IMG/VR virus record: IMGVR_UViG_3300013902_000267
Source of the DNA: a virus
Taxonomy: Duplodnaviria; Heunggongvirae; Uroviricota; Caudoviricetes
Length of the DNA stretch: 64,000 nucleotides
Strand: one strand, 5' to 3'
A model generated the notes under the pieces. That model was not told the DNA's origin, did no database searches, and saw nothing but the letters and a program-made list of their open reading frames with translations. The translations under genes and the position numbers were made by a program. This document shows positions 3,492-62,266 of this stretch, piece by piece (the stretch's first letter is position 1; each line of letters begins with the position of its first letter).

Positions 3492-3934
3492 AATATATAG
3501 TAGAATTTGATGGTAATGATGGCACAGGAAAAACTTATACGATAAAAGTATTATCAAAAGTTTTTTCTAACTGTATTTTTATAGATAGAGGATTATTCAG
3601 TAAAGCAACATTGCTATCAGACGAAAATGATGAAATGTATAAGTATATTGATGATAATATTGATATGAATAGAATTTATATTATATTGGATGATTATCCA
3701 GAACATTGTCAAATGCTTATAAAAAGAAGAGGAGATTCTATTGAAGAGAAATATCATACAATAGAAGATTTAGAGTATTATCGTAAACAATTTACAAACT
3801 TATATGGTTATTGTTGTAAAAAGAATTATGATAATGTTTATTTAGTTACACGATTATTACCAGATCATGTTCAGGTAATGATTGATATTATTAAGAAATT
3901 TACTAATTTTAATAAGGAAAATAATAATGAGTAA
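3473..3934 (+). CDS. P-loop (deoxy)nucleoside monophosphate kinase-like protein
   Basis: Walker A motif EFDGNDGTGKTY is of the thymidylate-kinase type (xDGxxGxGKT). 153 aa. Confidence 0.45.
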   Translation: MGNENVKYIVEFDGNDGTGKTYTIKVLSKVFSNCIFIDRGLFSKATLLSDENDEMYKYIDDNIDMNRIYIILDDYPEHCQMLIKRRGDSIEEKYHTIEDLEYYRKQFTNLYGYCCKKNYDNVYLVTRLLPDHVQVMIDIIKKFTNFNKENNNE

Positions 3935-4577
3935 AATAATTATTGGTACCAGTAATCCAGGTAAGATTAGAGAAATTGCATCTATTCTTTCACCATTAGG
4001 ATATGAGATTGAACCGCATGCATTGGATGTTGATGAAACAGGAAAGACTATTAAAGATAATGCTATTATAAAAGCAAAAGCATATAGTAATGTATTTCCA
4101 GATACTTATGTTATTGCAGAAGATAGTGGATTAGTCGTTCCTAAATTGAATAATCTTCCTGGTCCGTATTCAGCAAGATTTCATGAAATTACAATAGATG
4201 ATAATTTGAATGTTATAAATGTTCCACATGAAGAATTTACTACGGATAAATCTGAACATGATAAACTTAATAATGAGAAGTTGTTGAAGTATATTAAAGA
4301 TATTCCGTTTGATGAGCGTGCAGCATATTTTGAAGTATGTTTTGTCATTGCAAAGAATGGAATTATTCAAGAAACATTTAGTGGTTATTCATATGGTTAT
4401 ATAGCAGATGAATTACGTGGAACAAATGGATTTGGTTATGATCCATTGTTTATTGGTGAGAATACATTTGGTAAGACATATGCAGAACTAGATTCTGCAA
4501 GAAAGAATTTAAAGAGTCACAGAAAGCAAGCATTGAAACAATTGGGCCTTTGGGTTTCACAGAATATAGAGAATTAA
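3927..4577 (+). CDS. non-canonical purine NTP pyrophosphatase (ITPase, Ham1/RdgB family)
   Basis: Start is ATG 3927 (MSKIIIGTSNPGK), overlapping the upstream stop. Family motifs present: TSNPGK, AEDSGL, PGPYSARF, GFGYDPLF, KSHR. Confidence 0.75.
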   Translation: MSKIIIGTSNPGKIREIASILSPLGYEIEPHALDVDETGKTIKDNAIIKAKAYSNVFPDTYVIAEDSGLVVPKLNNLPGPYSARFHEITIDDNLNVINVPHEEFTTDKSEHDKLNNEKLLKYIKDIPFDERAAYFEVCFVIAKNGIIQETFSGYSYGYIADELRGTNGFGYDPLFIGENTFGKTYAELDSARKNLKSHRKQALKQLGLWVSQNIEN

Positions 4578-4583
4578 TAATAT

Positions 4584-5075
4584 ATGAAGAAATTTATTTT
4601 TCCAGGTTCATTTGATCCTTTTACAAATGGGCATAAAGCAATAGTAGATCAGACATATAAATTGTGTGATGAATTTATTATAGCATTAGCGACAAACTTA
4701 AAGAAAGGAGAAGGACTTATTAAACGTCCTGAGCGTATTAAGTTAATTAAAGAGATTTTTAAAGATTATCCGAATGTAAAGGTAATTGATATGACAGATA
4801 CCTTGATTTCTGATTATTGTAAAAAGAATGGAGTTTCTTATATTGTTAGAGGTATCAGAAATTCGGAAGACTTTACATATGAAAAATCATTGGCAGCTAC
4901 TAACCATTATTTGGCAGGTGTAGAAACAATGTTGGTAATGGGTTTTTGCGAACCATATAATATTGATATTTCATCTACATTCGTTAGAGAATTGGTACAT
5001 TATAAATTACCTATTGGTGAGTTTGTTCCACCAGTTGTTGAACAATATATTAAAGATAATAATTTAACATGGTAA
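4584..5075 (+). CDS. phosphopantetheine adenylyltransferase (CoaD)-like class I nucleotidyltransferase
   Basis: FPGSFDPFTNGH is the PPAT-type (T/H)xGH motif. VRGIRNSEDFTYEKSLAATN matches the CoaD RGLRxxxDFEYE block. An NMN/NaMN adenylyltransferase role cannot be excluded. Confidence 0.6.
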   Translation: MKKFIFPGSFDPFTNGHKAIVDQTYKLCDEFIIALATNLKKGEGLIKRPERIKLIKEIFKDYPNVKVIDMTDTLISDYCKKNGVSYIVRGIRNSEDFTYEKSLAATNHYLAGVETMLVMGFCEPYNIDISSTFVRELVHYKLPIGEFVPPVVEQYIKDNNLTW

Positions 5076-5938
5076 ATAAGATTCAAGAAGAAGATTTAAA
5101 AGCAGTTGAGTATTGTAAAACTGTATTATATCCTAAATGGAATATCAAAGATTTGTATTCTATAGATTTTGATACATTTAGAAAAATGCCGTTGGTTGTA
5201 GAAGGTGAAAGTAAAGAGATACGTGCATTGGATGATGATTATTGTATCATTTATTTTAAACCTACAATTTATTCATTTACATATAATAGAACTGGTATTG
5301 TAGAAGGAAGTAATATTCCACGTGTTCATGTAAGTAAAGTATTGTGTGAGTTACTTAAAGAAAATGGTATTAAACATGCATATCTAGATTATGGTGATGA
5401 ATTTGTATTAGCACGCATAATTAAAGATACACCTAATATTGAAGTTGTTGTAAAAGCAAATCATACAGGTACAAGTAAACATAGATATTTTGGTATGGGT
5501 AAATCACATGTAAGAATGTCACATCCATATTATTCGGGAATGAAAATTAAAGACATGGAACCATATCCAGCACCTATTGTAAGATTTGATTGGCGAAATC
5601 CATTTTGGGAACCAAATACACATAAGATGTTAGCTGATGAAGTTATGTGCGATGATCAAGCAGATTATTATATTGATGTTAAGAAAGCAAAGAAAACTGC
5701 AGCACTAACATTCAGTGTATTAAGTGATTTTCTTGCAAGTAAAGATATTGTTATTTATGATTTGTGTTTGTTTATATCAGAAGATGGTGAAACAGTATAT
5801 GGAGAAATTTCACCAGATTGTGGAAGATATAGACATTATGATTTAGGAAGTCTTGATAAGGATGTATGGCGTGCAGGAGGTTCATCAGATCAGGTATTGG
5901 AGAAGTGGAATTTACTGTATAAAATGATTACACAATAA
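5069..5938 (+). CDS. SAICAR synthetase (PurC)-like protein
   Basis: Colinear matches to PurC blocks: VVEGESKEIRALDDD (GKxKxVY...D), VVVKANHTGTSKHRYFG (VVRNRAAGSLVKRLG), and IYDLCLFISEDGETVYGEISPDCGRY (DFKLEFG...GDEFSPDxSR). Confidence 0.55.
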   Translation: MVNKIQEEDLKAVEYCKTVLYPKWNIKDLYSIDFDTFRKMPLVVEGESKEIRALDDDYCIIYFKPTIYSFTYNRTGIVEGSNIPRVHVSKVLCELLKENGIKHAYLDYGDEFVLARIIKDTPNIEVVVKANHTGTSKHRYFGMGKSHVRMSHPYYSGMKIKDMEPYPAPIVRFDWRNPFWEPNTHKMLADEVMCDDQADYYIDVKKAKKTAALTFSVLSDFLASKDIVIYDLCLFISEDGETVYGEISPDCGRYRHYDLGSLDKDVWRAGGSSDQVLEKWNLLYKMITQ

Positions 5939-5940
5939 TT

Positions 5941-6177
5941 ATGAGAAAATACGAATGTGAGATTGAAGATTATCATGGACATTTCTTTCACCATCGGTTT
6001 GAAGCAAACGATGATAATGAAGCGTTGGATAAAGCAAATGACCATGGTTATAGATATTATGCTAATGATGATACTTTATATTATGTAGAAGGAGATTATG
6101 TTGATTATAGTAATATAAGTACAGATCATTATAAAGAGAATATAAAGAAGTACCATCAAATATGGACTTCAATTTAA
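5941..6177 (+). CDS. hypothetical protein (78 aa)
   Basis: Uninterrupted ORF, start coupled to the upstream stop. Confidence 0.45.
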   Translation: MRKYECEIEDYHGHFFHHRFEANDDNEALDKANDHGYRYYANDDTLYYVEGDYVDYSNISTDHYKENIKKYHQIWTSI

Positions 6178-6183
6178 ATAGTA

Positions 6184-6216
6184 TATTTAAAAGTCACTAA
6201 AATAAAAACTTTAGTG
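6184..6216 (+). terminator. rho-independent terminator-like hairpin
   Basis: AAGTCACTAAA-ataaaaa-CTTTAGTGACTT followed by a T-run, directly after the 5941..6177 stop. Confidence 0.55.
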
Positions 6217-6263
6217 ACTTTTTCTATTATTATATATGAATTATAATTTAAACTATAAGATAA

Positions 6264-6647
6264 ATGAATTTAATTACAAATATAAAGAAATCATACAAAC
6301 ATATACCATATACATTTAAACATTGGAAGATGGTATTGAAATTAGAGAAGAAATATATAGGCTATTATAAATATCCTTTTCATGATTTAGATAAATTGTT
6401 CATGTATATATTCTTCCCTTATTTAGGAACAAAGATAATTCAGAAAATTCATACAAAGTTTGCTAATCATCATTTACGTAAATATAAGAAACATATGAAT
6501 TTTGATGAAGCTATTCTTGATTGGGAATCTGCAAGGTTTACAAAACCTGATAAACCATTGGATGCGTGGGATACATATCAAAAATATTTTACGGAATTTT
6601 CAAATGAACTTTTACCTATATTTGAAAAATTTAACTTGAAACATTAA
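6264..6647 (+). CDS. hypothetical protein (127 aa)
   Basis: Uninterrupted ORF. Confidence 0.45.
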   Translation: MNLITNIKKSYKHIPYTFKHWKMVLKLEKKYIGYYKYPFHDLDKLFMYIFFPYLGTKIIQKIHTKFANHHLRKYKKHMNFDEAILDWESARFTKPDKPLDAWDTYQKYFTEFSNELLPIFEKFNLKH

Positions 6648-9657: not shown

Positions 9658-10149
9658 ATGGCAACAAATAAAAAGAATACAGTTAAGAAGTATATGCTTT
9701 CCCAAAATTTACCTTTTGGTAATTTAAAAGCAGGCATGATTTTCTCTTATGATACTATTACAAAAACTGCGGTATTTCCAAATGGACAAGAGATCTCACC
9801 ATTTGATGTAACAGATAAGAATTTCGTTAAGTCTGTCGCAGATGTAAAGTTTAATGTAGGTGATTGTGTCATTTATCATACACGATTGTATAAGATTACT
9901 GATATTAACTATGTAACAGGTCGTTGTAAGCTTTTAGAGTTTTACGCAAATAAAGAGGTTGATTTTGTAAGTCATTCTGTATTGACAGCAGCACAAGTTT
10001 ATTGGTTTGTTAATTCGTCTGGAACTGTTTCATCATCATATATTGGCAAACAACCAGATGCAGACTTATGGAGAGCAAAAACAAAGAACATGTTTAATAC
10101 CAAGGAGGAGTGTCAGAAGTATAAGAATATTGTTCTTAAAAGTAAATAA
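9658..10149 (+). CDS. hypothetical protein (163 aa)
   Basis: Uninterrupted ORF preceded by the conserved promoter motif and followed by a hairpin. Confidence 0.5.
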   Translation: MATNKKNTVKKYMLSQNLPFGNLKAGMIFSYDTITKTAVFPNGQEISPFDVTDKNFVKSVADVKFNVGDCVIYHTRLYKITDINYVTGRCKLLEFYANKEVDFVSHSVLTAAQVYWFVNSSGTVSSSYIGKQPDADLWRAKTKNMFNTKEECQKYKNIVLKSK

Positions 10150-10198
10150 AGAATATTTTTCAAATTTAAAATTTTAAATTAATATTTTATTTAACTCT

Positions 10199-10232
10199 TA
10201 AAGAGATTTGTAGTGATTACAAGTCTCTTTTT
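10199..10232 (+). terminator. terminator-like hairpin
   Basis: AGAGATTTGTA-gtgat-TACAAGTCTCT followed by TTTTTT. Confidence 0.5.
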
Positions 10233-10270
10233 TCTTTTTAATAAATATATAAAATATAAAAGAAGTATTA

Positions 10271-10863
10271 TGCCAACAATGATGCCATTAATGGATAAAG
10301 ATACCGTAAGATATATAACATAGAATATTACACCAGAAGAAACTAAATATGTAGCTGATATAAAATCTACTATTGATGATACAAAGTGTGAACCAGAGAA
10401 ATGTGATGATGTTATATATCTTACTAAGATTATCGCTTTTTATACTAAATTTACAAATCTTGCAAATACAACACCTAATAATCAATATAAGATGCATATT
10501 CAAGATTTTATGTGGAGATTACAGCAATATAAGGAAGATATATTTGAAGTTGTTCAATCTATCATAGGAGTTTTAAATGGTTCCGATATTACAAAGATTG
10601 AATTACCTATAAGTGATAATCCATTAGAGATTATAAATGAATTAAAACAATGTGTACAAAATTGGTTTACACTTCATACAGATGATATTGAATATGAAGG
10701 CGCTAGATCATTAACTAGTTCATTCCTTTCTGTAATTCATAAGTTTGTTTACCTTTTTAGATTAGATAAATGCTCGACTGCTGATTATGGTCAGGATTAG
10801 AAATTACCAAATCCTGATGCAGGATTATGTGGAGTAAACGGAGCATATGCAGTAAATTTTTAA
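10271..10863 (+). CDS. hypothetical protein with in-frame TAG codons; needs a -1 shift at a T-run (10438-10441) for continuity
   Basis: Frame from ATG 10271 reads MPTMMPLMDKDTVRYITQNIT... up to the T5 run. The -1 frame continues ...YTKFTNLANTTPNNQYKMHIQDF... through TAG 10798 to TAA 10861-10863. Confidence 0.35.
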
Positions 10864-11861: not shown

Positions 11862-12365
11862 ATGATGATAACTACAAACATAAGTAACATTCCAGACGCA
11901 TGGGATGGTTATTTTGAACAATAGGTTAATAAGTTCACGCCTTCTGTTGAAGTTCCTAAGCCTTGGAGACATCCGGTTGGACCTGAACCTATGATGAAAC
12001 CTTGCAAGCATCATAAGACATAGTTTATTATAAAACATAAACCTGCTACATTACCAAATGGACCAGAACATGGATGTAACGTATGTGATCCATATCATCC
12101 AAATTTGTATGATCATATGAATATGCCTTGTTTTAATCAACATAAACCATATGGTATCGCTACTAATAGATTAATGAGTCCATTTGAAGATGATGATAGA
12201 CCTGATTGGCATGAATTCCATGCTAAGAATCGTAAACCTATGATGTTTGAAGAAGTTATAGATGAAAATGGTTGTTCACATGGTCCTCATGGAACAATTA
12301 ATGTTAGACCAGTTGAACCTGCTGATGATGAAGCAGATGAGATTGAAGATGAAGTAACAGTTTAA
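11862..12365 (+). CDS. Cys/His/Pro-rich small protein (167 aa), 2 in-frame TAG
   Basis: Continuous frame containing ORF 12105..12365. Acidic C-terminal tail. Motifs HGCNVCDPYHPN and CSHGPHG. Confidence 0.5.
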
Positions 12366-20642: not shown

Positions 20643-21344
20643 TTATTTTGATAAAGTACAATTATTAAAGAAAGTACAATATGATATATTAACTATATCA
20701 TTATATATAATTGTATCAACAAGTTCATCATATCTCAAAAGAGATGCTATGAAATTTTTATTATTCTGAAATTTAACACCTGGTTGCAATATCTTCGTTT
20801 CATAATGCATCCATATATTAACATTATTAAACTTATTTTTTAATATATCTATATACTTATGATAATCATCAAATGTATTAAATACACCTTTAAATAATGT
20901 ATCTATTATGTTAATATCATTGAAATCAACACTATTTAATAAATTTAATTCATCTGTATTACATGTTTCATATATTACATTATTATCTTTATCATATGAT
21001 TTTGTATTATATAAAATAAGTTGTATATCCTTTTCAGTTGTATTAATTATTTTTATATTTCTAACTATCAACGGACATGATATAATATATGATATAGGAC
21101 ATAGTATGCAGTTCTTTTTAATATTACTATCAAATATTAATGTAACACCACCATCTGAATATTCTATATCATCTATATTATGAACAATATTAATGTTTAT
21201 ATTATAATCATTCTTTTGTTTCTTTAATTTCAGTATATCATCTTTCCATCTTTTGAATTCTAATTCTCTTTGTTCATTTAGAACCTTTGAACCAACAGAT
21301 TCATTATTTACTATGTTATCAAATTCTTCGTCAAATAAATTCAT
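20643..21344 (-). CDS. hypothetical protein (233 aa)
   Basis: Uninterrupted ORF. Confidence 0.5.
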   Translation of the reverse strand: MNLFDEEFDNIVNNESVGSKVLNEQRELEFKRWKDDILKLKKQKNDYNININIVHNIDDIEYSDGGVTLIFDSNIKKNCILCPISYIISCPLIVRNIKIINTTEKDIQLILYNTKSYDKDNNVIYETCNTDELNLLNSVDFNDINIIDTLFKGVFNTFDDYHKYIDILKNKFNNVNIWMHYETKILQPGVKFQNNKNFIASLLRYDELVDTIIYNDIVNISYCTFFNNCTLSK

Positions 21345-21435
21345 ACCTTTTTAAAATTAATCAATAATTATATAGAAAAATGATGAAAAAGTTATATATT
21401 TTCTTAAAAATATTGATATTTTAACAATAAAAAAT

Positions 21436-21467
21436 GATTCCAGTAGAAGTATACTGGAATCATTAAA
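21436..21467. terminator. terminator hairpin downstream of nrdD
   Basis: AATGATTCCAGTA-gaagta-TACTGGAATCATT immediately 3' of the nrdD stop (minus strand). Confidence 0.5.
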
Positions 21468-21489
21468 ATATTAAAATAAAATAGTTAAA

Positions 21490-21579
21490 TTAAATATTTT
21501 CTTTTGGTAAATAAACACGTGTCTTTTGTTCTTTCTGACGTCCATCAGACCAATTCGAAATTTTAGTTAAATCACAATA
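21490..21579 (-). CDS. nrdD: nrdD exon 6 (approximate)
   Basis: YCDLTKISNWSDGRQKEQKTRVYLPKENI*. Joined to exon 5 it gives RIIG-YCDL...NWSDGRQ, matching the class III RNR RVCGYLG...NFNPGK...RV C-terminus. Confidence 0.5.
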   Translation of the reverse strand, partial: YCDLTKISNWSDGRQKEQKTRVYLPKENI

Positions 21580-21818
21580 TACCCGAACTTTCATTCTATT
21601 TTAAAGGGGTTAGACTATACCACTAACTTCTTGAGTTACATCTTGGTAGTCGTTGAGGGCTTTTATTTGTTTCGTATCAAATAACTATCCCTGCTGATTA
21701 TCCATTGTTATATCATTAGAATTTTTACACTTTGGTATCTAATGCTTTAGGAACTTCCAGCATATTCGATGTTTGCTATATATGTCACCATATATAGGGG
21801 CATTTAATTAAAAATTTA
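21580..21818 (-). mobile_element. group I intron 5 in nrdD (ORF-less, about 240 nt)
   Basis: Minus-strand CTCAACGACTACCAAGATG (R) and GGTATAGTCTAACCCC (S). It splits the glycyl-radical motif between RIIG and YCDL. Confidence 0.55.
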
Positions 21819-22152
21819 CCCGATTATTCTGTCATATAAACTTACATGAACTGATCCACACTTTGGACATACACTAAATGGTGTCTTTGAAATATATCCA
21901 CAATCTTCACATTTACAATTAGGAACATTAAATGTCCAATATTGACAACCATTCTCTGCCGCAAATTTCATAATGTGAACAATCTGTTTCTTAGACAAGT
22001 GCTCTGACAAATTGAGATGCGCTGCTGAACCACCATCCAAAAAATCTCCAATATAGTTCTTACCATGTAAGGTAATCTTATCAAAGATTGACAATGTTTT
22101 ATCATTTGGTTTGAATATGTAAGACGCATACAGGTTAGTGTCTGTTGGTACC
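21819..22152 (-). CDS. nrdD: nrdD exon 5 (approximate)
   Basis: ...NCKCEDCGYISKTPFSVCPKCGSVHVSLYDRIIG is the zinc ribbon plus the start of the glycyl-radical motif. The ORF-track start is TTG. Confidence 0.5.
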
Positions 22153-22191
22153 CAATCAACTCTGTTACATGATTACATAATAATTTTAATA

Positions 22192-22479
22192 TTATTGTTG
22201 AATGTAATCTGATTTATTAATATATTCATTTAGATTTATTAAACCTGCATGAATTTTCCTATGACAATTTGAACATACACATACACATTTTTTTATTTCT
22301 TCATATAGTTTTTCTTTACCTCTCCCTCGATGTTTACCTATTGTAAAATCTTTTTCATTTGGATCTATATGATGAAAATCTATACAACATGGTTCATATT
22401 CACTACATATTATACATGGATTCTTTAATGAATATAACCATTCTGTTTTTCTTTTTTGTGAACGCTTATTTTTGTTCAT
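22192..22479 (-). CDS. small HNH endonuclease (95 aa)
   Basis: CIICS...FHHIDP...CSNCHRKIH HNH / zinc-finger motif. Confidence 0.6.
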   Translation of the reverse strand: MNKNKRSQKRKTEWLYSLKNPCIICSEYEPCCIDFHHIDPNEKDFTIGKHRGRGKEKLYEEIKKCVCVCSNCHRKIHAGLINLNEYINKSDYIQQ

Positions 22480-22612
22480 TATGTATTTCAGGATGTGCTT
22501 TTCTCATCTATTTCCTATATAATTTTCTACATTCTTTACATACTGCACGTCCTTTTTCAAACATTTCTATAGACAATTCTTTACCACATTTATTACATAT
22601 TTTTGTTGTCAT
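22466..22612 (-). CDS. small zinc-ribbon ORF (48 aa, 1 in-frame TAG), possibly an N-terminal extension of the HNH protein
   Basis: MTTKICNKCGKELSIEMFEKGRAVCKECRKLYRK(Q)MRKAHPEIHNEQK. It overlaps the HNH start in another frame. Confidence 0.3.
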
Positions 22613-22912
22613 ATATATTAAATTATGTTTTATTATTTATCACCGGAACATGACAAAAATAACATAACCCAATTATATTAATAAACGCTTAATTATTTCT
22701 AATCAAGTCTCTATGTTACCATAGAGTTCGGACTATTGCATAGTTTTGTTTCACAACAAAACTCCTTTTTATTTAGTCTCTCAGGCTGCCCATAACATTG
22801 TTGTTATTGCTTGCCCCTCGTTATCCTTACTACCGGTACCTAAGGTAATAAAATGTAAGGAACTTCGAGTCAATTAAAAAAGGTTTTACATGGACATTGT
22901 TATTGTTGTCTA

Positions 22913-23395
22913 TCCATCTTCAGAATCCCAATTATAATTCTTTATTGCCAAACTTTCAGCTGGTATACATTCAGTATTGAACGTTAACTTATGACCGTTA
23001 AATGTACCTGCAGCTTCTTGATTCTTTTGCTTTATATATCCAAATATTGTTTGACAAAGTTTTTCATAATGAGGATTTACATTACAAGTAATTCCTAAGA
23101 ATTCTGCCATTTGATTAAGACCATTCAAACCAATTGTTAAATATTGCTTATTCAAATTAATAAACCCTGCTTTATATACAGGTAATAATCCTGCGTCATA
23201 CATATCCCAAAGAAGTTCATTATATGCTGTATGATATTTATATACTCTATCAAGAATATTACCAAAATATTCGCACATATCATCATAATGCTCTTCTACA
23301 TTTTCTTTTGTTACTCCAGATTTCTTAACACTGTTAAACCAGTCTTGAGTTATGCGACTAAGATTCAGGGTTATCACACTTTTACTTCCTGTTTG
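22913..23395 (-). CDS. nrdD: nrdD exon 4 (approximate)
   Basis: ...RKRQTGSKSVITLNLSRITQDW...LNKQYLTIGLNGLNQMAEFLGI...FNTECIPAESLAIKNYNWDSEDG. The exon ORF stops at a TAG beside the intron. The ORF-track start is GTG, not a true initiator. Confidence 0.5.
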
Positions 23396-24600
23396 ACGTT
23401 TTCTCCATATATTTCTATATGGTCCGGGTCATATCTTATGTTTATTTAAATAATAAACATTGCACTATTTCGGCATTTAAAACGATTCGTTTCCTAAAAC
23501 GTTACTACGTATCAATAGTAGTCCTACTCCACCTGCTCATCACTTAGGGGATGACCTCCACACACATTAATAATTTTTATATGTTCTACCTATTAACATA
23601 TTCCTAAAATTATTCATTAAATAATTTTTATATTTACCGATTTTTAATTCTTCAATAGATTTGCCATTATTATATTGTTCTCTTAAATAAACAACTTCAT
23701 CTTTAGATAACAATGGTAACTTCTATTTACATTTATCAGTTCTAATAGGCATTTTTACATGCATATATGATTTTCCAAATAATATTTTATTAAATCCACT
23801 CCATGAATATAAATTACTATATTCTTTAAAAATATCATCTTCTTTTTCACCATTTACAAAATATCTTATTCTTATGTTTAATACTTCTTCATCAGATAAA
23901 TTCTTAGAATTTGCATGCATATTTCCTCTACGTGTTCTTCGATCTGATTTATAAAAATCATTTACTTTATCTGTATTATATTCTATACCAATTTCAGGTC
24001 TTGTATAATAATGCCAATATTTTGAAAATCCACTTTTTGACATTCTATCTTTATACATTTCATATACTTCTCCAAAAGTATATTTCATAGAATAACGTAT
24101 TTTTCTTAATTCTAATAATTCATTATCATTTAATATTGCTTTGGGATGCTCCTCCCCAACTTTTATTATAGTTGCAGAATGTCCACCCAATGTAGAATTA
24201 TATCCATTATTATAACTATCATATAATTTAATGTAATATATTTCTTTATTATCAGCTTCATCCTAATTAGGAACATTATCTTCTAATATTGAAAAATTTG
24301 ATTCATTAATATTATATTTTCTCATTGCTCTATATAATTTATAATCACTATGTTTCATATCATTTAAATGTTCTCTTACTCTTATATGATAATGATGTGT
24401 CTACCCAATATATACTTTTCCATTAGGAAATGATATTTTATAAATTGTAAATATTTTATTCATATATTATAAATGTAAAATTATAACATATTTATATTAA
24501 CTTGGCTCGGTATTACCATGCATATAGTTTCACAACTTATGTTTAGGCTTCACCGATGCATTAATATCGCTATATTAATACATTGCTTGATTAGCAATTA
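23396..24600 (-). mobile_element. group I intron 3 in nrdD, carrying a GIY-YIG endonuclease ORF
   Basis: R-like GGAGTAGGACTAC and S-like AAGATATGACCCGG on the minus strand near 23425-23530, 3' of the ORF. Confidence 0.5.
23723..24463 (-). CDS. GIY-YIG homing endonuclease (246 aa), 2 in-frame TAG
   Basis: N-terminal IYKISFPNGKVYIG(Q)T...RVREH GIY-YIG motif, with a TAG inside the YIGxT block. C-terminal GEEHPKAILNDNELLELRKIRY DNA-binding module. ORF 23723..24190 is only its C-terminal part. Confidence 0.65.
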
Positions 24601-25440
24601 AGCACATAAAGGACCCAAGTTGATCCCTAAATTTCCATTTGTGAAGTTGAATTCCTTTGTTTGTATCTTATTCTTAAGTCTGCAGTTATGTGTTATATTT
24701 CCATTAGGCATTAAGAAATATGGTTCAAGATTCTTATCGCAGAGTTCTACACAATAATAATCTTTTGGTTCATCAAGATTTACAACTTCAACCTTTGTAA
24801 TTTTTCTTATAACAATGTCTTGATCTACATCTTTAAAATCATTTCTAAACATACCCATATATTGTCCATACTCAAAGATAAGTTGATCTCCTGTTTGAAG
24901 CAAATATGCTTGCTTATCTTTAATCATCTTATCATCATCAATAATAGGGAATATATGATCCGGTGTAACTCTCATTACATTTCGTGATTCATCCGGATTA
25001 AAATCGTCTGGAGCGAAATAAATTCTTACTTCTTGAACTGCTTCTGCTTTTACAAACTTAGCATTTACCCATTCACCTGTACATTTACCTGTTGTACCAT
25101 TAAAATTCATATGATATACATTAATAATTTCATCCTTATGCTTTTCATATGCATTTTTAAATGACTCAACCATATATGCGTTTGAACCTGCGTTTTCTTC
25201 CATATTACAAGGTTCTACATACATGAATGGAGTATCACCATCGAAACAACAACTTGATAATGAATCAACTGTATCTGACATATATGTAAAGAATGAATGA
25301 CCTCTTGCATATTCATCCGCCACAAAATCTGCAGATTCCTTATCAAGGAATTCTCCATCCTTATATACTAATGCGAAACTTTCCCATTTATATTCTATAT
25401 AGTTCGTTACACTATATACGTTCATAATAATGAACTGCTT
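24601..25440 (-). CDS. nrdD: nrdD exon 3 including a mini-intein (approximate boundaries)
   Basis: ...GHSFFTYMSDTVDSLSSC, then the intein, then CRLKNKIQTKEFNFTNG... Removing the intein reconstitutes SCCRL. Confidence 0.5.
24685..25248 (-). mobile_element. mini-intein (188 aa) inserted at the nrdD SCCRL active-site motif
   Basis: Begins with Cys1 in CFDGDT (intein block A). Ends ...DYYCVEL...PYFLMPNGNITHN (blocks F and G, terminal HN), immediately followed by extein Cys (CRL). No endonuclease domain is visible. Confidence 0.6.
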
Positions 25441-26214
25441 TATGTTACCATAAAGATTAGACTATATCACAATCCTATAAATATAGGATTCTCCCCATTT
25501 CCACTCACTTGAGTGTACTTCCTTTCGGAATAGTCGTTGAACCTTATTATATAAATGAATATTTATGACCATAATATAATCTATTTGCATTTATCGATTT
25601 TACTAATCCTGATATACATGCAGTTCCTCCAATATTTTTAATAACTTCGGACATTGATGAATATATTATATTATTATCTAAACATTTTATTTTCTTTGGA
25701 AACGTTTTTCCCTTCATCGTATTACCAAATGTTTTAATAGAATATAATTCATTCTCTGATTGTGTGCACCATTCTAAATTATCTACTCTATTATCTGATC
25801 TATTACCATTTAAATGATTTACAAATGGTTTATTTTCAGGATTTGGTATAAATTCTTGAGCAACAAGTCTATGACATAAATATCTAGTTTTAATAGAATT
25901 TTGCATTAATGATATTCTTAAATAACCATCTAATGTATATTCTACTTTTAATGGTTTACCTTTATACGGACGTAATCCACCCCATCTACAAGGCACCATT
26001 CTATCTTTACTTCTGAAATTACCTAAATTACTAACTTCAAATGCGCCATCATATCCTGTTATACTTTTCCAAATTTCTTCCATAATATTCTCTTATATAA
26101 TCTTGGTTGCTGATTATCTAATAACTTCGCATATTTATTAGAGTTCCCAGCAGTTAAAGGAGTTTTTCAATAATAAATTACTTTATTATGCCGCAGATTG
26201 ATTTACGGGGAAGG
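25441..26214 (-). mobile_element. group I intron 2 in nrdD, carrying an HNH endonuclease ORF
   Basis: R-like GTTCAACGACTATTCC and S-like GTGATATAGTCTAATC on the minus strand at 25450-25535. Confidence 0.55.
25547..26083 (-). CDS. HNH homing endonuclease with NUMOD4-like N-terminus (178 aa)
   Basis: WKSITGYDGAFEVSNLGNFRS (NUMOD4-like). NHLNGNRSDNRVDNLEW is an HNH_3-type motif. Confidence 0.65.
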   Translation of the reverse strand: MEEIWKSITGYDGAFEVSNLGNFRSKDRMVPCRWGGLRPYKGKPLKVEYTLDGYLRISLMQNSIKTRYLCHRLVAQEFIPNPENKPFVNHLNGNRSDNRVDNLEWCTQSENELYSIKTFGNTMKGKTFPKKIKCLDNNIIYSSMSEVIKNIGGTACISGLVKSINANRLYYGHKYSFI

Positions 26215-26452
26215 TGATTATCGTACGAAGACGTTCCTTATTAAACCATATCATGAAGTCTTTCTGTAACCATGAAACACTTTCCCAACATGGTCTTGTT
26301 CCTTCTTCATCAGGAAATACAAATTCACCAAACATACCTTCAAAGAACGGTTTATCAAAATAAGAGAAATTTACAACATTTTTTCTTCTACATAAATCGT
26401 TACTTTATGTACGTTACTATTTGTAACTGCTCTATGATTTCCATAGACGATT
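26215..26452 (-). CDS. nrdD: nrdD exon 2 (approximate)
   Basis: Open frame ...NVVNFSYFDKPFFEGMFGEFVFPDEEGTRPCWESVSWLQKDFMIWFNKERLRTIITFPV between two intron cores. Confidence 0.4.
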
Positions 26453-27839
26453 AACGAATTTCACGTTAAAAGGGTTTGTTTAAACCGTTTAGACTATATC
26501 ACCAAATTTAATTTTCTTAAATTTGCACCTACACTTCCATAACACTTGTTATGTACTCTACTAACTCATTTAAAGTTTTCGATAGTCGTTGAACTTTTAT
26601 CCTTGTAGGATAATTAGCTGCGTATGATTACCCAATCTTTATCGTTTTTACAATCTGATAGCCGTTATACTATCTGCTACTATCTATGTTACCATGATAT
26701 GCTGTAGATAAAGCTCTAAGGGACTTCCCGCAATTCAAGGTGTTTATTAACGTCAGCACATGTAATTTCTCTTATAATTTAATTATTACCAAAATTATGT
26801 ATTTTATACATGTGACAATTTTTACAATATGTTATAAGATTATCTATGTTATTAAGTTCTTTATTTTTTATCGCTAAATTAAATAATTCATCAAAATTAT
26901 CAGTAGGATTTAATTCTGGATGTTCTGATAATAAATTATGAAATAATATTTTAAATGGAACTATATGATGAACTTGAAGATTTTCATGACAACCGCATAG
27001 CTAACAAGTATTATGATCTCTCTCTATAACTTCTGGAACTAATCGATTAAAATATGTTCTTATTTTATTACCTAATCTTGTAGTATCTGTTGTATATGGA
27101 ATATTAGTAATATTTAAACTATTTAATACTCTATTAATTACAGCTATTGTACAATTATATCTCCGTGCCAATTCTGTTTTTGATATTGACTATTCAATAT
27201 ATAAATTATATAATTTTTTATAATCATTAAAATCTTCTGGTATTTCTTTTTTATGATAATTCCACATAGATTCTGCAAAAGTACGTCTTTTAATCCCATT
27301 ATGTTTTAAATGACTTCTTATAGTAGTTGCTGAACAGTTAAATATTTTACCTATTTCTACTGTAGATTTACCATCATTATATAATTTTATTATTTCCTAA
27401 TCATTTGTATCATCATATTGTTCATAAACTTCATAATTAGTATTTTTTATATTATATTTTTTAAAATATCTATTAATAGTACCTTTATGACATTTATATA
27501 TTTCTGAAATTTCTTTCATTGTTAAACCATTATTAACATAATTTATTAAATCTTCTTTTTTAATTATTAATTTAGATTTTTCAATATTCCATTTTCTTAA
27601 ATATTCTTTAATATTTGCTAATGTTGTATTTCCTTCTTTAGCACACTATTTTCGTGTTAAACCTTTAATAACATAATTTTCATATAACCAATCTCTATCT
27701 TTTGTAAAATATCTATAATTAGACATAATTTCAGATATGTAAAATTACATACAGGATTATGTAATTTTTAATTTATTTTAGTTTATGCTGACTATAATCC
27801 TCTGGAGGCCGCAGGTTGGTTAATTGAATACACGACCTA
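26453..27839 (-). mobile_element. group I intron 1 in nrdD, carrying an HNH homing endonuclease ORF
   Basis: Minus-strand AATTGCGGGAAG (P element), GTTCAACGACTATCG (R) and GGTGATATAGTCTAAAC (S) lie 3' of the ORF. Confidence 0.6.
26779..27726 (-). CDS. HNH homing endonuclease (315 aa) with repeated HTH modules; 4 in-frame TAG
   Basis: C-terminal C(Q)LCGCHENLQVHHIVPF...NLITYCKNCH HNH motif, where the first CxxC includes a TAG codon. Three GxxxxEIxxxxxxxxxTI HTH-like repeats. ATG at 27726, TAA at 26779. Confidence 0.65.
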
Positions 27840-28901
27840 TTGAAAGAATTGTTGAATACATGAACCAATAGTTCTTGTACCATCACCTATCTTAATAGGA
27901 TTCGTAAAATCTTTTATTGAACCTTCAACATCATATTGTGATAATTCTTTCTCATATGCTTCAAGTTCTTCATCTGTTAACTCTCTTTCTGAATTATAAA
28001 CAAGTTCATCACGAAGTTTGTTTAATTCGTCTGAACCAAAATCATGTTTTCTCAATGTATCTACATCTTTACACCAATAATTAGATTCATTAAGAAGTTT
28101 CCTATATTTAGGCCCAATCTTATAAAATTCTTTACTATGCAAATGATAATCTTCACCAAACTCTTTTCTTGCAAAATAATCAAAATAAACAAGAAATTCC
28201 GATGTTGCAACTGCACCTGCAAATTGAGCAGCAACTGCAAATACAAGATTTACATACATACCACAATAAGAATCAAGATTTTGTGGATGACATGAAAGAC
28301 CTCCTATTTTTTCTAAACCATTATGAAGGAATGGATACATAGTTATACTTGTGCAATACGGACTTATGGCACCAGCGAAGCTAGACTCATCGTTCTTATA
28401 TATAATATGGTTTTTTAAATCTTTTTGATATTGTTTTGCTTTAAAATTTGGATATAGTTCTTTAAGTTTCCTTGTAATCATACCTCTGCTTACAAGAATA
28501 TTATCAGCTTTATGAATTTCAGCATTTAATACACCGATATTCTTAGAAGAAACATTAGAATTATCATCTACAGTACTATTTGCAGTATTAGATGCATTCT
28601 TATATCTTTCAATAAATGCTTCCTTATTAGCAACCCATTCTCTAATTTCCTTTTTCTTGTTACGATAAAGAATAAATTCTTTCGCAACTTTAGGATAATC
28701 ATGAGAATACAAACTTGTTTCAATTTGATCCTGTATTTCCTCTACAGGAATACCATCATATGGTGTTATTGAGTTTGCAATATTAGCTATAGTATCTTTA
28801 GTATACTTAGTTTTCGTAGACTTAAACGCCTCACGAATCGCTCGTTTAACTGTCTAAACACTATAGTTCTCAAAACTACCATCACGTTTCGTTACCTTCA
28901 T
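27840..28901 (-). CDS. nrdD: nrdD exon 1 (approximate 3' boundary)
   Basis: ATG at 28901. ATP-cone, then the YCTSITMYPFLHNGLEKIGGLSCHPQNLDSYCGMY region. Contains in-frame TAG. The exon ORF closes at a TAG next to the intron. Confidence 0.55.
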
Positions 28902-29038
28902 ACTTAGTTTTCTTTCTATTTTATTTTTGGTAAAATATTTATTCTCGACTATGAGAATTTTTCAAAATATTATTTTATATATTATATAAAAAAATGCAAA
29001 TGAAGTCTTATAACAAACATCATTTGCATTAAAATATT

Positions 29039-29758
29039 TTAATTATTTTTAAAAATTTTTTCTTTCCAATAATTAAAGTCAATATCTTTGATTTGATATT
29101 GAATTAAATTTCCAGTTAATACATCAGAAAGTTTTACAGGTTTATAATCATTTCCATCAACACCAACATCATATGTCATTGCTTTTTCTTTTAATTTCTT
29201 AGCAATATTTGCATCTGTACCTGTATATGTTTCAACATTCTTTGGTGTATGCAGATGTCCATGTATATTGAACTTTCCTAAAAATTGACCATCACAATGT
29301 GGATAATGTGAAACTGTAAATTGAAGAATTATTTTATCTTTATAATCGTCATATATTTGTACAATAAGTTCTGTACTCCAATATACTTTACTATTCTCAT
29401 TATATGGCATCATATTCCTTCTTTGCAATACATTCTTTACATCATGATTTCCAATAATATTATAAATCTTTTCAGCATTAATATTATTAACCATTTCATC
29501 ATATGTACTTACATTACTAAATATAAAATCACCACAATTTATAAGTATTGGATTAACGCATTCAGATAAAGTTTCATTAAGATTATCAAATAAAACTTTA
29601 TTCATTTCTTGTACATCTTTAAATGGTCGATTACAATATTTTATTATATTTGCATGATTTGCATGTATATCACTAGTAAAAAATATTCTATTTATATCAG
29701 ATACTTTAAACTTTAATATATGCGGCCCCATTACTACTGTTTTCTTTTCTTGCTTCAT
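29039..29758 (-). CDS. calcineurin-like metallophosphoesterase
   Basis: Motifs DIHANH, GDF, GNHD, HGHLH. Confidence 0.65.
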   Translation of the reverse strand: MKQEKKTVVMGPHILKFKVSDINRIFFTSDIHANHANIIKYCNRPFKDVQEMNKVLFDNLNETLSECVNPILINCGDFIFSNVSTYDEMVNNINAEKIYNIIGNHDVKNVLQRRNMMPYNENSKVYWSTELIVQIYDDYKDKIILQFTVSHYPHCDGQFLGKFNIHGHLHTPKNVETYTGTDANIAKKLKEKAMTYDVGVDGNDYKPVKLSDVLTGNLIQYQIKDIDFNYWKEKIFKNN

Positions 29759-61911: not shown

Positions 61912-62091
61912 ATTATTTTTGATATAAAAAAGAAAACATAAAGAAATATCAATTTTTATAGTAAAAACAATTAAAATTCTATAGAAATCTTATTAAATTT
62001 TATAATATTTTTTAAACAAGTATAGATAAGAAAAGTCTACCATGACTTACATCATAATAGACTTATAGTACATCTTTAAAAATAATATCTG

Positions 62092-62187
62092 TGGATATAG
62101 ATGGACTCGAACCACCATGTATCTGCCCTAGAATTATGATACAAACTAACATCATATTAGTCGCGTTTACCATTTCGCCATATATCC
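62092..62187 (-). tRNA. class II (long variable arm) tRNA, 95 nt, tentatively Ser(UGA)-like
   Basis: Acceptor GGATATA/TATATCC. D arm GCG(A)-AATGGTAA-(A)CGC. Anticodon stem ACTAA/TTAGT with loop TATGATG (anticodon TGA but A at position 33). Variable arm TGTATC-14 nt-GATACA. T arm GGTGG-TTCGAGT-CCATC. Alternative folds are possible. Confidence 0.5.
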
Positions 62188-62193
62188 ATATAG

Positions 62194-62266
62194 CAGGCCT
62201 GATGAGATTCGAACTCACAACAACATGATTAAAATTCGTGTGCTCTACCAATTGAGCTACAGGCCC
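62194..62266 (-). tRNA. tRNA-Lys (anticodon UUU)
   Basis: Acceptor GGGCCTG/CAGGCCT. D arm GCTC-AATTGGTA-GAGC. Anticodon stem CACGA/TCATG (one mismatch) with loop ATTTTAA. T arm GTGAG-TTCGAAT-CTCAT. Discriminator G. Confidence 0.7.

What the first reader, a model, noticed from the sequence alone, without database searches (positions are those of the whole stretch)
21490..28901. nrdD is interrupted by five group I introns and one intein, about 7.4 kb for an expected 2.1 kb coding sequence
NrdD-homologous segments occur in six pieces on the minus strand: ATP-cone, SCCRL, VITLNLSRI, FNTECIPAES, zinc ribbon, RIIG/Y glycyl-radical motif, and the NWSDGRQ tail. They are separated by sequences containing P, Q, R and S group I core elements. 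The same R/S-like pairs recur five times: GTTCAACGACTA... and ...GATATAGTCTAA... The last intron splits the glycyl-radical motif between G and Y. Four introns carry endonuclease ORFs. T4 nrdD famously carries one intron. Five introns plus an intein in one phage gene is an extreme case.
Basis: partly seen in the sequence, partly recalled or inferred. Interest (0 to 1): 0.85.

Follow-up and report, generated by a model that had tools for sequence, protein, structure and literature searches.

The report
Phage nrdD: five introns, one intein
The anaerobic ribonucleotide reductase gene (nrdD) of Prevotella megaphage Lak-B7 is cut into six pieces by five mobile group I introns and also carries a protein-level intein, which is an unusually crowded and previously unreported example of a well-known kind of selfish genetic element.

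Summary
The finding holds up. The window is Prevotella megaphage Lak-B7. On the minus strand, 28901-21490 is one nrdD gene in six exons.

Sister Lak phages carry intron-less alleles, and these fix all five intron boundaries to the nucleotide:
- I1 27784-26377
- I2 26204-25385
- I3 24622-23397
- I4 22911-22157
- I5 21817-21573

Every intron follows a U, ends in G and splits a codon. Each has a P1 helix with a U.G pair next to a P10 guide. I1, I2, I4 and I5 also have a complete P3-P9 core. For I3, P3 and P6 remain tentative.

In-silico splicing gives a 2958-nt ORF with three in-frame TAG codons. Lak phages read TAG as Gln. Removing a 188-aa mini-intein at SSC|CRL leaves a 797-aa protein. It scores above the curated NrdD cut-off and is under strong purifying selection (dN/dS 0.057).

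Four introns carry HNH or GIY-YIG homing endonuclease ORFs.

Caveats:
- Rfam's group I model never reaches its gathering score. Four introns score 24-43 bits on intron-sized slices. I3 scores nothing and was confirmed by covariation with an Enterococcus phage intron.
- Splicing is inferred, not observed.
- The kind is known. Jug and crAss-like gut phages and Brochothrix phage A9 have multiply split genes. This is therefore a new, extreme member, not a new mechanism.

The parts
21490..28901 (-). Whole nrdD locus (7412 nt): six exons, five group I introns, one intein-coding segment.
   Evidence: 100% identical to Prevotella phage Lak-B7 MK250026.1. In-silico splicing gives a 2958-nt ORF.
27785..28901 (-). 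Exon 1 (1117 nt): ATP-cone and the N-terminal half of NrdD. Has in-frame TAG codons at 28856-28854, 27839-27837 and 27794-27792.
   Evidence: Pfam ATP-cone 9.7e-18. The second and third TAG codons align with CAA (Gln) in Lak-A1, and the first is TAG in both phages.
26377..27784 (-). Intron I1 (1408 nt). The ORF sits between the 5' splice site and the internal guide sequence (IGS). The ribozyme core is at 26778-26377 and has P7.1/P7.2.
   Evidence: Absent from Lak-A1. RF00028 28.3 bits, E=2e-5, full model. P1 is 8 bp, GUCAGCAU/GUGCUGAC; P10, P3-P9 verified.
26779..27726 (-). I1 homing endonuclease ORF, 315 aa: repeated HTH modules plus a C-terminal HNH domain. Four in-frame TAG codons.
   Evidence: Pfam HTH_28, HNH_2 and HNH. 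phrog_8446 HNH endonuclease 3e-31. ORF defined.
26205..26376 (-). Exon 2 (172 nt), FVNFSYFDKP...RTIITFPV.
   Evidence: Continuous alignment to T. maritima NrdD 4COI.
25385..26204 (-). Intron I2 (820 nt), subgroup-IA-like with P7.1/P7.2. The ORF sits in the P6 loop.
   Evidence: Absent from Lak-A1, A2 and C1. RF00028 29.3 bits, E=2e-5 on the 3' core. Helices verified. The 3' core is 81-85% identical to Staphylococcus, Bacillus and Enterococcus phage sequences.
25547..26083 (-). I2 homing endonuclease ORF, 178 aa, NUMOD4 + HNH_3. No TAG codons.
   Evidence: Pfam NUMOD4 3e-14 and HNH_3 9e-12. phrog_59 8e-39.
24623..25384 (-). Exon 3 (762 nt). Contains the intein-coding segment.
24685..25248 (-). 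Mini-intein, 188 aa: CFDGD...TPDH...NGNITHN, followed by Cys+1. It is inserted between the two Cys of the SSCCRL finger-loop motif.
   Evidence: Exactly absent from about 47%-identical NrdD homologues. Pfam Intein_splicing 26.7 bits, E=5.5e-6, below the gathering score (GA) of 35.8. Present in all 15 Lak records. Another NrdD (P0014) has a LAGLIDADG-containing intein at the same ...THN|CRL site. dN/dS 0.15.
23397..24622 (-). Intron I3 (1226 nt). A GIY-YIG ORF lies between the P4-P6 domain and P7. P7 is GGUCA/UGACC instead of GACUA/UAGUC.
   Evidence: Absent from Lak-C1. No Rfam hit. Homologous to the intervening sequence in the split DNA polymerase gene of Enterococcus phage EF1. 8 of 21 pairs show compensatory changes and 98.8% of cells are paired. 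The 5' core is 98% conserved against 88% for the ORF.
23567..24463 (-). I3 homing endonuclease ORF, 298 aa, GIY-YIG (motif YIG-Q(TAG)-T). Three in-frame TAG codons.
   Evidence: Pfam GIY-YIG 1.7e-4. phrog_7168 homing endonuclease 3.5e-20.
22912..23396 (-). Exon 4 (485 nt), QTGSKSVITLNL...FNTECIPAES...DSEDG.
22157..22911 (-). Intron I4 (755 nt). The compact core is at 22911-22700 with no P7.1/P7.2. The ORF lies 3' of P9.
   Evidence: Precisely absent from Lak-B3, B5 and B6, which are otherwise 99% identical. RF00028 42.6 bits, E=8e-10, full model including P1. Helices verified. The core is found only in six Lak-B genomes.
22192..22612 (-). I4 HNH endonuclease coding region, split over two frames: 22612-22466 (zinc-ribbon N-terminus) and 22479-22192 (HNH core). 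Probably frameshifted or decaying.
   Evidence: phrog_2255 HNH 1e-22 for the 95-aa part. phrog_1035 endonuclease VII-like 6e-7 for the 48-aa part.
21818..22156 (-). Exon 5 (339 nt): C-terminal zinc ribbon (CEDC...CPKC) and RIIG.
21573..21817 (-). Intron I5 (245 nt, no ORF). Splits the Tyr codon of the glycyl-radical motif RIIG|Y.
   Evidence: Absent from Lak-A1, A2 and C1. RF00028 24 bits, E=2.6e-4. P1 is GGGU/GCCC, followed directly by a 6-bp P10, UUAAAU/AUUUAA. P2-P9 verified.
21490..21572 (-). Exon 6 (83 nt), (Y)LTKISNWSDGRQKEQKTRVYLPKENI plus stop.

Best explanation
The locus is one functional class III ribonucleotide reductase gene (nrdD) of Prevotella megaphage Lak-B7. Six self-removing mobile elements have colonised it.

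Inferred mechanism, by analogy with characterised phage group I introns and inteins:
1. The 7.4-kb region is transcribed as one pre-mRNA.
2. Each of the five group I ribozymes folds. Its internal guide sequence pairs with the last bases of the upstream exon (P1, with a U.G wobble at the splice site).
3. Free guanosine cleaves after that U. The freed exon 3'-OH then attacks after the intron's terminal G, with the P10 pairing aligning the downstream exon.
4. Five such events yield a 2958-nt ORF.
5. The ORF is translated with TAG read as glutamine (Lak genetic code 15), giving a 985-aa precursor.
6. The 188-aa mini-intein excises itself: Cys1 acyl shift, transfer to Cys+1, then cyclisation of the C-terminal Asn. 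This recreates the SSCCRL finger loop and leaves a 797-aa NrdD.
7. The HNH and GIY-YIG endonucleases encoded in I1-I4 cut intron-less alleles in co-infecting phages. This drives homing and explains the patchy distribution of the introns among Lak lineages.

Shown here: exact boundaries, ribozyme core pairings, an intact conserved spliced ORF, purifying selection, and presence/absence polymorphism.

Inferred: actual RNA and protein splicing, endonuclease activity, and timing.
For: Identity of the region: Lak-B7.

Intron boundaries and distribution:
- Intron-less alleles define every boundary. Lak-A1 keeps only I3. Lak-C1 keeps only I1. Lak-B3, B5 and B6 lack I4.
- All five sites have U at -1 and G at the intron 3' end, and all interrupt codons (phases 1, 2, 2, 1, 1).

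Ribozyme structure:
- Script-verified P1 and P10 for all five introns, and P3-P9 for I1, I2, I4 and I5. In I3, P3 and P6 remain tentative.
- RF00028 on intron-sized slices: I4 42.6 bits, I2 29.3, I1 28.3, I5 24.0, with E from 8e-10 to 3e-4.
- I3 aligned with its relative in Enterococcus phage EF1 gives 8 of 21 pairs with double compensatory changes. Three of these are in P7. Slid controls give 1 or fewer.

The spliced product:
- TIGR02827 667.5 bits against a cut-off of 568.3. Pfam NRDD 1e-80 plus ATP-cone.
- Continuous alignment across the junctions to T. maritima NrdD 4COI.
- Extein dN/dS is 0.057 at dS 0.92 between B7 (five introns) and A1 (one intron).

Genetic code: TAG aligns with CAA in Lak-A1. 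Code 15 for Lak is published (PMC6784885).

Intein:
- Absent exactly in homologues.
- C1, TxxH, HN and C+1 are present. Pfam Intein_splicing E=5.5e-6.
- A LAGLIDADG-type intein sits at the same site in another NrdD.

Endonucleases.

Mobility: I1 is 97% identical between B7 and C1, while the flanking exon 1 is 87% identical.
Against: - No RNA or protein data: splicing is not observed.
- RF00028 never reaches its gathering score of 50 bits. It finds nothing on the whole window or on the 8.5-kb region, and nothing for I3 even on a 1.2-kb slice.
- The intein's Pfam score (26.7) is below the gathering score (35.8). A single-sequence AlphaFold model was unusable (pLDDT 41).
- P1 and P10 of I2 are short (4 and 3 bp).
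- P3 and P6 of I3 are only tentative.
- In I1 the ORF lies between the 5' splice site and the guide sequence, so P1 must form across about 1 kb.
- The I4 endonuclease is out of frame.
Confidence: 0.9

Rival explanations
1. The gene is functional, but one or more of the five introns (most plausibly I3, I2 or I1) no longer self-splices efficiently. Such an intron would depend on a protein cofactor or on particular conditions, so splicing would act as a bottleneck or regulator of NrdD production rather than being constitutive.
For: - I3 has no Rfam hit and an atypical P7. Its P3 and P6 are unresolved.
- I2 has weak P1 and P10 pairings.
- I1 needs a P1 that spans about 1 kb.
- All RF00028 scores are below the gathering score.
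Against: - Strong purifying selection on the exons (dN/dS 0.057) requires all five to be removed.
- The I3 core is 98% (5') and 92% (3') conserved, with compensatory changes, while its ORF drifts to 88%.
- Core helices are intact in all five introns.
Confidence: 0.12
2. The pieces are not spliced. nrdD is a split gene whose fragments are translated separately and assemble, as reported for Aeromonas phage Aeh1 nrdA split by mobE.
For: - Endonuclease ORFs lie between the fragments.
- Split but functional RNR genes are known (PMC3653736).
Against: - All five interruptions fall inside codons.
- E2 (57 aa) and E6 (27 aa) have no start codon context.
- The breaks cut through the catalytic motifs (RIIG|Y, TFPV|E).
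- Ribozyme cores with P1 and P10 flank every break.
- I5 has no ORF at all.
Confidence: 0.02
3. nrdD in Lak-B is a decaying pseudogene overrun by mobile elements, as proposed for Campylobacter phage Cpt10 nrdA.
For: - Six insertions in one gene.
- The I4 endonuclease ORF is frameshifted.
- Precedent in PMC3653736.
Against: - The spliced frame is intact over 2958 nt.
- It scores above the curated equivalog cut-off.
- dN/dS is 0.057.
- The same architecture is kept in nine independently assembled Lak-B genomes and in IMG/VR contigs.
Confidence: 0.02
4. Metagenome assembly artefact that joins unrelated intron and nrdD fragments.
For: The genome is a MAG (metagenome-assembled genome) (header; PMC6784885).
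Against: - The same structure is present, at 99% or higher identity, in nine curated Lak-B genomes from different baboons and in three IMG/VR contigs from other samples (L007, L008, L024).
- Exact splice-rule boundaries would not arise from misassembly.
Confidence: 0.01

Closest known systems
Phage T4 nrdD (sunY) group I intron encoding I-TevII
   Same: [quoted passage not shown] It is variably present among relatives and mobile by homing (PMC2988022).
   Different: T4 has one intron and no intein, and uses the standard code. Lak-B7 has five introns of at least three structural types, HNH as well as GIY-YIG endonucleases, and TAG-recoded ORFs. No BLAST similarity to T4 was seen.
Jug (jumbo gut) phage nrdD, split by group I introns and inteins (PMC12880540)
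   Same: Huge gut phages of Bacteroidota. nrdD is fragmented in most genomes (up to four fragments shown) by group I introns, endonuclease ORFs and Intein_splicing domains. Splicing is supported by metatranscriptomes for some introns.
   Different: Jug phages use the standard code and the published example has four fragments. Here there are six exons plus an intein in a code-15 Lak megaphage, and every boundary is fixed by an intron-less allele.
Brochothrix phage A9 nrdE (three introns plus an intein) and B. subtilis SPbeta bnrdE (intron plus intein) (cited in PMC3653736)
   Same: Coincidence of group I introns and an intein in one phage ribonucleotide reductase gene.
   Different: These are class Ib RNRs (nrdE) in Firmicutes phages, with fewer introns.
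Zeta-group crAss-like phage genes, for example an MCP split into five fragments (PMC7886860)
   Same: Gut Bacteroidota phages with a very high density of group I introns and inteins, combined with stop-codon recoding. The 100-190-kb IMG/VR contigs carry an I2-type intron at the same nrdD nucleotide; I suspect they belong to this group but did not test it.
   Different: A different gene and phage clade. At most four intervening sequences are reported in one gene.
Intervening sequence in the split DNA polymerase gene of Enterococcus phage EF1 (MF001358)
   Same: The 3' ribozyme core is 85-91% identical to I3 over 87 nt. The layout is the same (5' core, ORF, 3' core), and EF1 has canonical R/S elements that covary with I3's P7.
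   Different: The host gene (DNA polymerase), host phylum (Firmicutes) and ORF differ. EF1's record annotates only 'hypothetical protein' there.

Membership tests
Group I self-splicing intron | Conserved catalytic core: P3-P8 pseudoknot domain with P7 (G-binding helix) and the P4-P6 domain, in canonical order. | tested here: met
   - P3, P4, P5, P6, P7, P8 and P9 were located and base-pair-checked for I1, I2, I4 and I5.
- I3: P4, P5, P7, P8 and P9 check out. P3 and P6 are tentative.
- I3's P7 and three peripheral helices are supported by 8 compensatory pairs against EF1 and Lak-A1.
Group I self-splicing intron | Score at or above the Rfam RF00028 gathering threshold (50 bits). | tested here: not met
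   - Whole window at gathering: no hit.
- 8.5-kb region at E up to 10: no hit.
- Intron-sized slices: I4 42.6, I2 29.3, I1 28.3 and I5 24.0 bits, all significant for the slice but below 50.
- I3: none.
Group I self-splicing intron | 5' splice site after a U that forms a U.G wobble in P1 with an internal guide sequence; intron ends in G; P10 pairs the guide with the 3' exon. | tested here: met
   All five: U at -1 and G at the 3' end. P1 is 4-8 bp with a terminal U.G, and P10 is 3-12 bp immediately 5' of the P1 strand.
Group I self-splicing intron | Precise removal restores a continuous host reading frame; intron-less alleles exist. | tested here: met
   Intron-less alleles for each site in Lak-A1, A2, B3 and C1. 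Spliced ORF of 2958 nt. Continuous alignment to 4COI.
Group I self-splicing intron | Guanosine-dependent self-splicing of the transcript. | not testable with these tools
   Needs in vitro transcription with a GTP-labelling assay, or RT-PCR or RNA-seq from infected cells.
Intein (Hint-domain protein splicing element) | Terminal nucleophiles and blocks: Cys/Ser at position 1, TxxH (block B), C-terminal His-Asn, Cys/Ser/Thr at +1. | tested here: met
   Read from the translation: C1 (CFDGDTPF), RVTPDHIFP, DYYCVEL...NGNITHN, followed by Cys of CRL.
Intein (Hint-domain protein splicing element) | Pfam Intein_splicing (PF14890) at or above the gathering score. | tested here: not met
   26.7 bits, E=5.5e-6, against a cut-off of 35.8. 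It covers profile positions 60-155. No PDB sequence hit. The AF2 single-sequence model was unusable.
Intein (Hint-domain protein splicing element) | An in-frame insertion at a conserved host site that is exactly absent from orthologues. | tested here: met
   - In more than 30 NrdD homologues at about 47% identity, the alignment jumps from precursor aa 476 to 659-664 on contiguous DNA.
- T. maritima has ASCCRL uninterrupted.
- Another NrdD (P0014) carries a LAGLIDADG intein at the same THN|CRL site.
Class III (anaerobic) ribonucleotide reductase NrdD | Full-length match to curated NrdD models, plus the glycyl-radical motif, C-terminal zinc ribbon and finger-loop Cys. | tested here: met
   TIGR02827 667.5 bits (cut-off 568.3) and NF006127 620.9 bits (cut-off 545). 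Pfam NRDD 1e-80 and ATP-cone. RIIGY, CEDC...CPKC and SSCCRL are present in the spliced product.
Homing endonucleases (HNH, GIY-YIG) | Catalytic-domain profile match for the ORF embedded in the intron. | tested here: met
   - I1: HNH_2 and HNH plus HTH; phrog_8446 3e-31.
- I2: NUMOD4 and HNH_3; phrog_59 8e-39.
- I3: GIY-YIG 22.2 bits, marginally below the Pfam cut-off of 22.6; phrog_7168 3.5e-20.
- I4: phrog_2255 1e-22, but the ORF is split over two frames.
- Activity was not tested.
Genetic code 15 (TAG = Gln) usage | In-frame TAG at positions where orthologues have Gln codons. | tested here: met
   Codons 355 and 370 are TAG in B7 and CAA in Lak-A1. Codon 16 is TAG in both. GIY-YIG motif is 'YIG-TAG-T' where Q is usual, which is from my own knowledge of the family. 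Code 15 was reported for Lak in PMC6784885.

The most novel reading that the evidence does not exclude
Lak-B nrdD may be the most densely invaded protein-coding gene so far seen in any phage: six self-splicing elements in one gene.

nrdD in gut Bacteroidota phages also acts as a shared landing pad:
- At least seven intron sites occur within the Lak clade and at least nine with the related 100-190-kb gut phage contigs.
- Ribozyme cores are exchanged with Firmicutes phages.

Both the host gene (TAG at codon 16) and two of the intron endonucleases (4 and 3 TAGs) contain recoded stops. Production of NrdD and of the homing enzymes could therefore be gated by the phage's switch to code 15, coupling intron mobility and dNTP supply to the infection stage.
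Probability: 0.3. Interest if true: 0.6.

Novelty: new member of a known kind. Interest (0 to 1): 0.5.

Why it matters
- It corrects the annotation of a flagship megaphage. The Lak genome records are unannotated. The original papers report only tRNA introns, low coding density and expressed 'intergenic' regions (PMC6784885, PMC8346664). About 4.5 kb of that apparently non-coding DNA here is ribozyme plus homing-endonuclease sequence.
- It gives nucleotide-exact boundaries for five introns and one intein, with natural intron-less controls. That makes it a ready system for studying homing, intron competition and splicing order in an uncultured, alternatively coded phage.
- It shows that Rfam's single group I model at default thresholds misses all five introns in AT-rich phage DNA. 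This matters for intron surveys.
- It documents near-identical ribozyme modules in phages of Bacteroidota and Firmicutes hosts.
- It adds no new mechanism.

Tried and rejected
1. Rfam at gathering on the whole window, and at E up to 10 on 21000-29500, gave nothing. Only intron-sized slices gave RF00028 hits. I3 never hit.
2. I rejected it. In Lak-A1 the A-to-G change in GACUA is compensated by U-to-C in the adjacent local hairpin (ACUAC...GUAGU). The EF1 homologue places the true P7 at GGUCA/UGACC.
3. P6 of I3 as GCC/GGU overlaps P7 and was dropped. P3 and P6 of I3 remain tentative.
4. I first assumed that Lak-A2 has a different intron at the I1 site. It actually sits 45 nt upstream, in the Tyr codon of QQVV|YSINQP.
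5. The S-like motif at 44287(-) was checked as a possible further intron. It lies inside an ORF with no Rfam hit, so it is chance.
6. Intein structure: the single-sequence AlphaFold2 model had pLDDT 41 and was not used for a fold search. The PDB sequence search found no intein. tblastn against phage records found the intein only in Lak.
7. A literature search for a published description of Lak nrdD introns found none. A search for the T. maritima radical-Cys numbering found nothing.

Full report
**Source and observation**

Region 21400-29000 is 100% identical to Prevotella phage Lak-B7 (MK250026.1). It is 99.2-99.9% identical to the other eight baboon Lak-B genomes. All of these records lack annotation. 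Lak phages are about 550-kb megaphages that read TAG as glutamine (PMC6784885).

**Boundaries from natural intron-less alleles**

BLAST of the locus against Lak-B3, A2, C1 and A1 (loci L001-L004) shows clean presence/absence blocks:

| Phage | Intron content |
|---|---|
| Lak-B3, B5, B6 | lack only I4 |
| Lak-A1 | only I3 |
| Lak-C1 | only I1 |
| Lak-A2 | I3, plus a different intron 45 nt upstream of the I1 site |

Reading the junctions gives unique solutions that obey the group I rule: the exon ends in U and the intron ends in G. The introns are:
- I1 27784-26377
- I2 26204-25385
- I3 24622-23397
- I4 22911-22157
- I5 21817-21573

The exons are 28901-27785, 26376-26205, 25384-24623, 23396-22912, 22156-21818 and 21572-21490. 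All five introns interrupt codons (phases 1, 2, 2, 1, 1). I5 splits the Tyr codon of RIIG|Y.

**The spliced gene**

- Joining the exons gives a 2958-nt ORF with no TAA or TGA and three in-frame TAG codons (codons 16, 355 and 370).
- Codons 355 and 370 are CAA in Lak-A1.
- After removal of residues 476-663, the 797-aa product scores 667.5 bits on TIGR02827 (cut-off 568.3). It also matches Pfam NRDD (1e-80) and ATP-cone.
- It aligns without breaks across the I1, I2, intein and I5 junctions to T. maritima NrdD 4COI.
- Between B7 (five introns) and A1 (one intron), extein dN/dS is 0.057 at dS 0.92. The gene is under strong purifying selection, so the insertions must be removed.

**Are they group I introns?**

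Rfam at default thresholds finds none. On intron-sized slices RF00028 gives:

| Intron | Bits | E-value | Coverage |
|---|---|---|---|
| I4 | 42.6 | 8e-10 | full model, including P1 with the 5' exon |
| I2 | 29.3 | 2e-5 | 3' core |
| I1 | 28.3 | 2e-5 | full model |
| I5 | 24.0 | 3e-4 | model positions 60-148 |
| I3 | none | - | - |

All scores are below the 50-bit gathering score.

I then located and base-pair-checked the helices:
- Each intron has a P1 of 4-8 bp with the splice-site U.G wobble.
- The P10 strand lies directly 5' of the guide sequence. For example, I5 has UUAAAU-GCCC pairing with exon AUUUAA and GGGU.
- P4-P5-P6 have the usual J4/5 and J5/4 context.
- P7 is GACUA/UAGUC in I1, I2, I4 and I5.
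- P8 and P9 often carry GNRA loops.
- I1, I2 and I3 have extra hairpins between P7 and P3' (P7.1/P7.2, subgroup-IA-like). I4 and I5 do not.

**I3**

- Its 3' core is 85-91% identical over 87 nt to a sequence in Enterococcus phage EF1. That sequence lies between two pieces of a split DNA polymerase gene, just after an internal ORF.
- EF1 has canonical CGACUA ... AAGAUAUAGUC. I3 has GGUCA ... AAGAUAUGACC, which is three compensatory pairs in P7.
- On an alignment of B7, Lak-A1, L023 and EF1, 21 proposed pairs are 98.8% paired, and 8 show changes on both sides. Slid controls give 31-53% paired and 1 or fewer such pairs.
- I3's 5' core is 98% conserved and its 3' core 92% conserved between B7 and A1. 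Its ORF is 88% conserved and the flanking exons 83-86%.
- An ORF-less relative with canonical P7 occupies another nrdD site in a Lak-like contig (L028).

**Intein**

- Residues 476-663 are CFDGDTPF...RVTPDHIFP...DYYCVEL...NGNITHN, followed by Cys. They lie between the two Cys of SSCCRL.
- More than 30 NrdD homologues at about 47% identity, from 100-190-kb phage contigs, lack exactly this block on contiguous DNA.
- Pfam Intein_splicing gives 26.7 bits, E=5.5e-6, below the gathering score.
- A search of 1.8 billion representative proteins finds only 14 relatives. These include NrdD fragments with the same insertion. They also include a NrdD (P0014) with a LAGLIDADG-containing intein at the same ...THN|CRL site.
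- The intein is in all 15 Lak records and in no other phage record. Its dN/dS is 0.15.
- In the 4COI alignment the +1 Cys corresponds to chain residue 330. From memory, that is the proposed thiyl-radical cysteine. I could not confirm this in the library.

**Endonucleases**

With TAG read as Gln:
- I1 encodes a 315-aa HTH-repeat plus HNH protein with four TAG codons.
- I2 encodes a 178-aa NUMOD4/HNH_3 protein.
- I3 encodes a 298-aa GIY-YIG protein with three TAG codons, including YIG-Q-T.
- I4 encodes an HNH protein split over two frames.
- I5 has no ORF.

ORF positions differ:
- I1: between the 5' splice site and the guide sequence.
- I2: in the P6 loop.
- I3: between the P4-P6 domain and P7, probably in the P6 loop.
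- I4: 3' of P9.

**Mobility and wider context**

- I1 is 97% identical between B7 and C1, while exon 1 is 87% identical. This fits recent lateral spread.
- I4 occurs in only six of the nine Lak-B genomes.
- Other Lak-like contigs use two further sites, codon 358 and codon 887/888.
- More distant gut phage contigs carry introns at the very nucleotide used by I2, and at codons 829/830 and about 185.
- Ribozyme cores of I1, I2, I3 and I5 share 70-91% identical stretches with introns of Staphylococcus, Bacillus, Enterococcus, Listeria, Clostridioides and Vibrio phages.

**Novelty**

- The Lak papers describe tRNA introns only.
- Multiply split genes are known in several systems:
  - Jug phage nrdD, four fragments, with partial RNA-seq support (PMC12880540).
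  - Zeta crAss-like MCP, five fragments, with recoding (PMC7886860).
  - Brochothrix A9 nrdE, three introns plus an intein, and SPbeta nrdE (PMC3653736).
- Five introns plus an intein exceeds each of these. I did not find a higher count for a phage gene in the library, but I have not searched it exhaustively.

**Verdict**

This is an extreme, previously undescribed member of a known kind. Splicing itself remains to be shown experimentally.

Noticed in passing
window 28856-28854, 27839-27837, 27794-27792 (minus strand); also seven TAGs inside the I1 and I3 ORFs: In-frame TAG codons in nrdD and in two intron endonuclease genes. Two of the exon TAGs are CAA in Lak-A1. Codon 16 is TAG in both lineages, so NrdD synthesis depends on TAG decoding. 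The I2 and I4 ORFs have no TAG.
   Followed up: partly
window about 28145-27900 (NrdD residues about 253-334): An in-frame segment of about 82 aa (KEFYKIGPKYRKLL...IKIGDG). It is absent from T. maritima NrdD and from several 49-52%-identical phage homologues. It has no intein termini, so it looks like a lineage-specific insertion of unknown role.
   Followed up: partly
window 22612-22192 (minus strand): The I4 HNH endonuclease is split into two overlapping frames: a zinc-ribbon N-terminus and the HNH core. This is either a decaying gene or one that needs a frameshift. I4 is also the intron with the narrowest distribution (six Lak-B genomes).
   Followed up: partly
L002 (Lak-A2) about 3667-5037; L011 10072-10416; L028 about 10072-10415 and 12027-12312; L023 5124-6205: Other Lak-clade phages carry group I introns at two nrdD sites that are empty in Lak-B7. 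One is in the Tyr codon of QQVV|YSINQP, 45 nt upstream of I1. The other is at FLDG|GSAAH (codon 887/888). ORF-less forms of 345 and 286 nt exist.
   Followed up: partly
L037, L039, L040, L043, L044 (IMG/VR contigs of 99-188 kb): nrdD genes only 36-49% identical to Lak's carry introns at the same nucleotide as I2 (TTCCCxGT|...). The 5' end of L040's intron is nearly identical to I2. Further sites occur at codons 829/830 and about 185.
   Followed up: partly
L005 (Enterococcus phage EF1 MF001358) 1675-2664: An unannotated group I intron related to I3 appears to split the DNA polymerase gene. The record calls the internal ORF and the downstream exon 'hypothetical protein'.
   Followed up: partly
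window 62091-62187 (minus strand), next to tRNA-Lys 62193-62266: A 96-nt tRNA-like gene. Rfam scores it as tRNA (45 bits), but default ARAGORN does not call it. With introns allowed, ARAGORN gives a doubtful Asn(gtt) with a long variable arm. It may be the intron-containing tRNA reported for baboon Lak phages (PMC6784885).
   Followed up: partly
window 44287-44279 (minus strand): An exact GATATAGTC S-like motif outside nrdD. It lies at the start of a 120-aa ORF and has no Rfam support, so it is judged a chance match.
   Followed up: yes
window 26377-27784 versus L003 (Lak-C1) 5216-6620: Intron I1 is 97% identical between Lak-B7 and Lak-C1, although the surrounding exon 1 is only 87% identical. 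This suggests recent lateral transfer of the intron between Lak lineages.
   Followed up: yes
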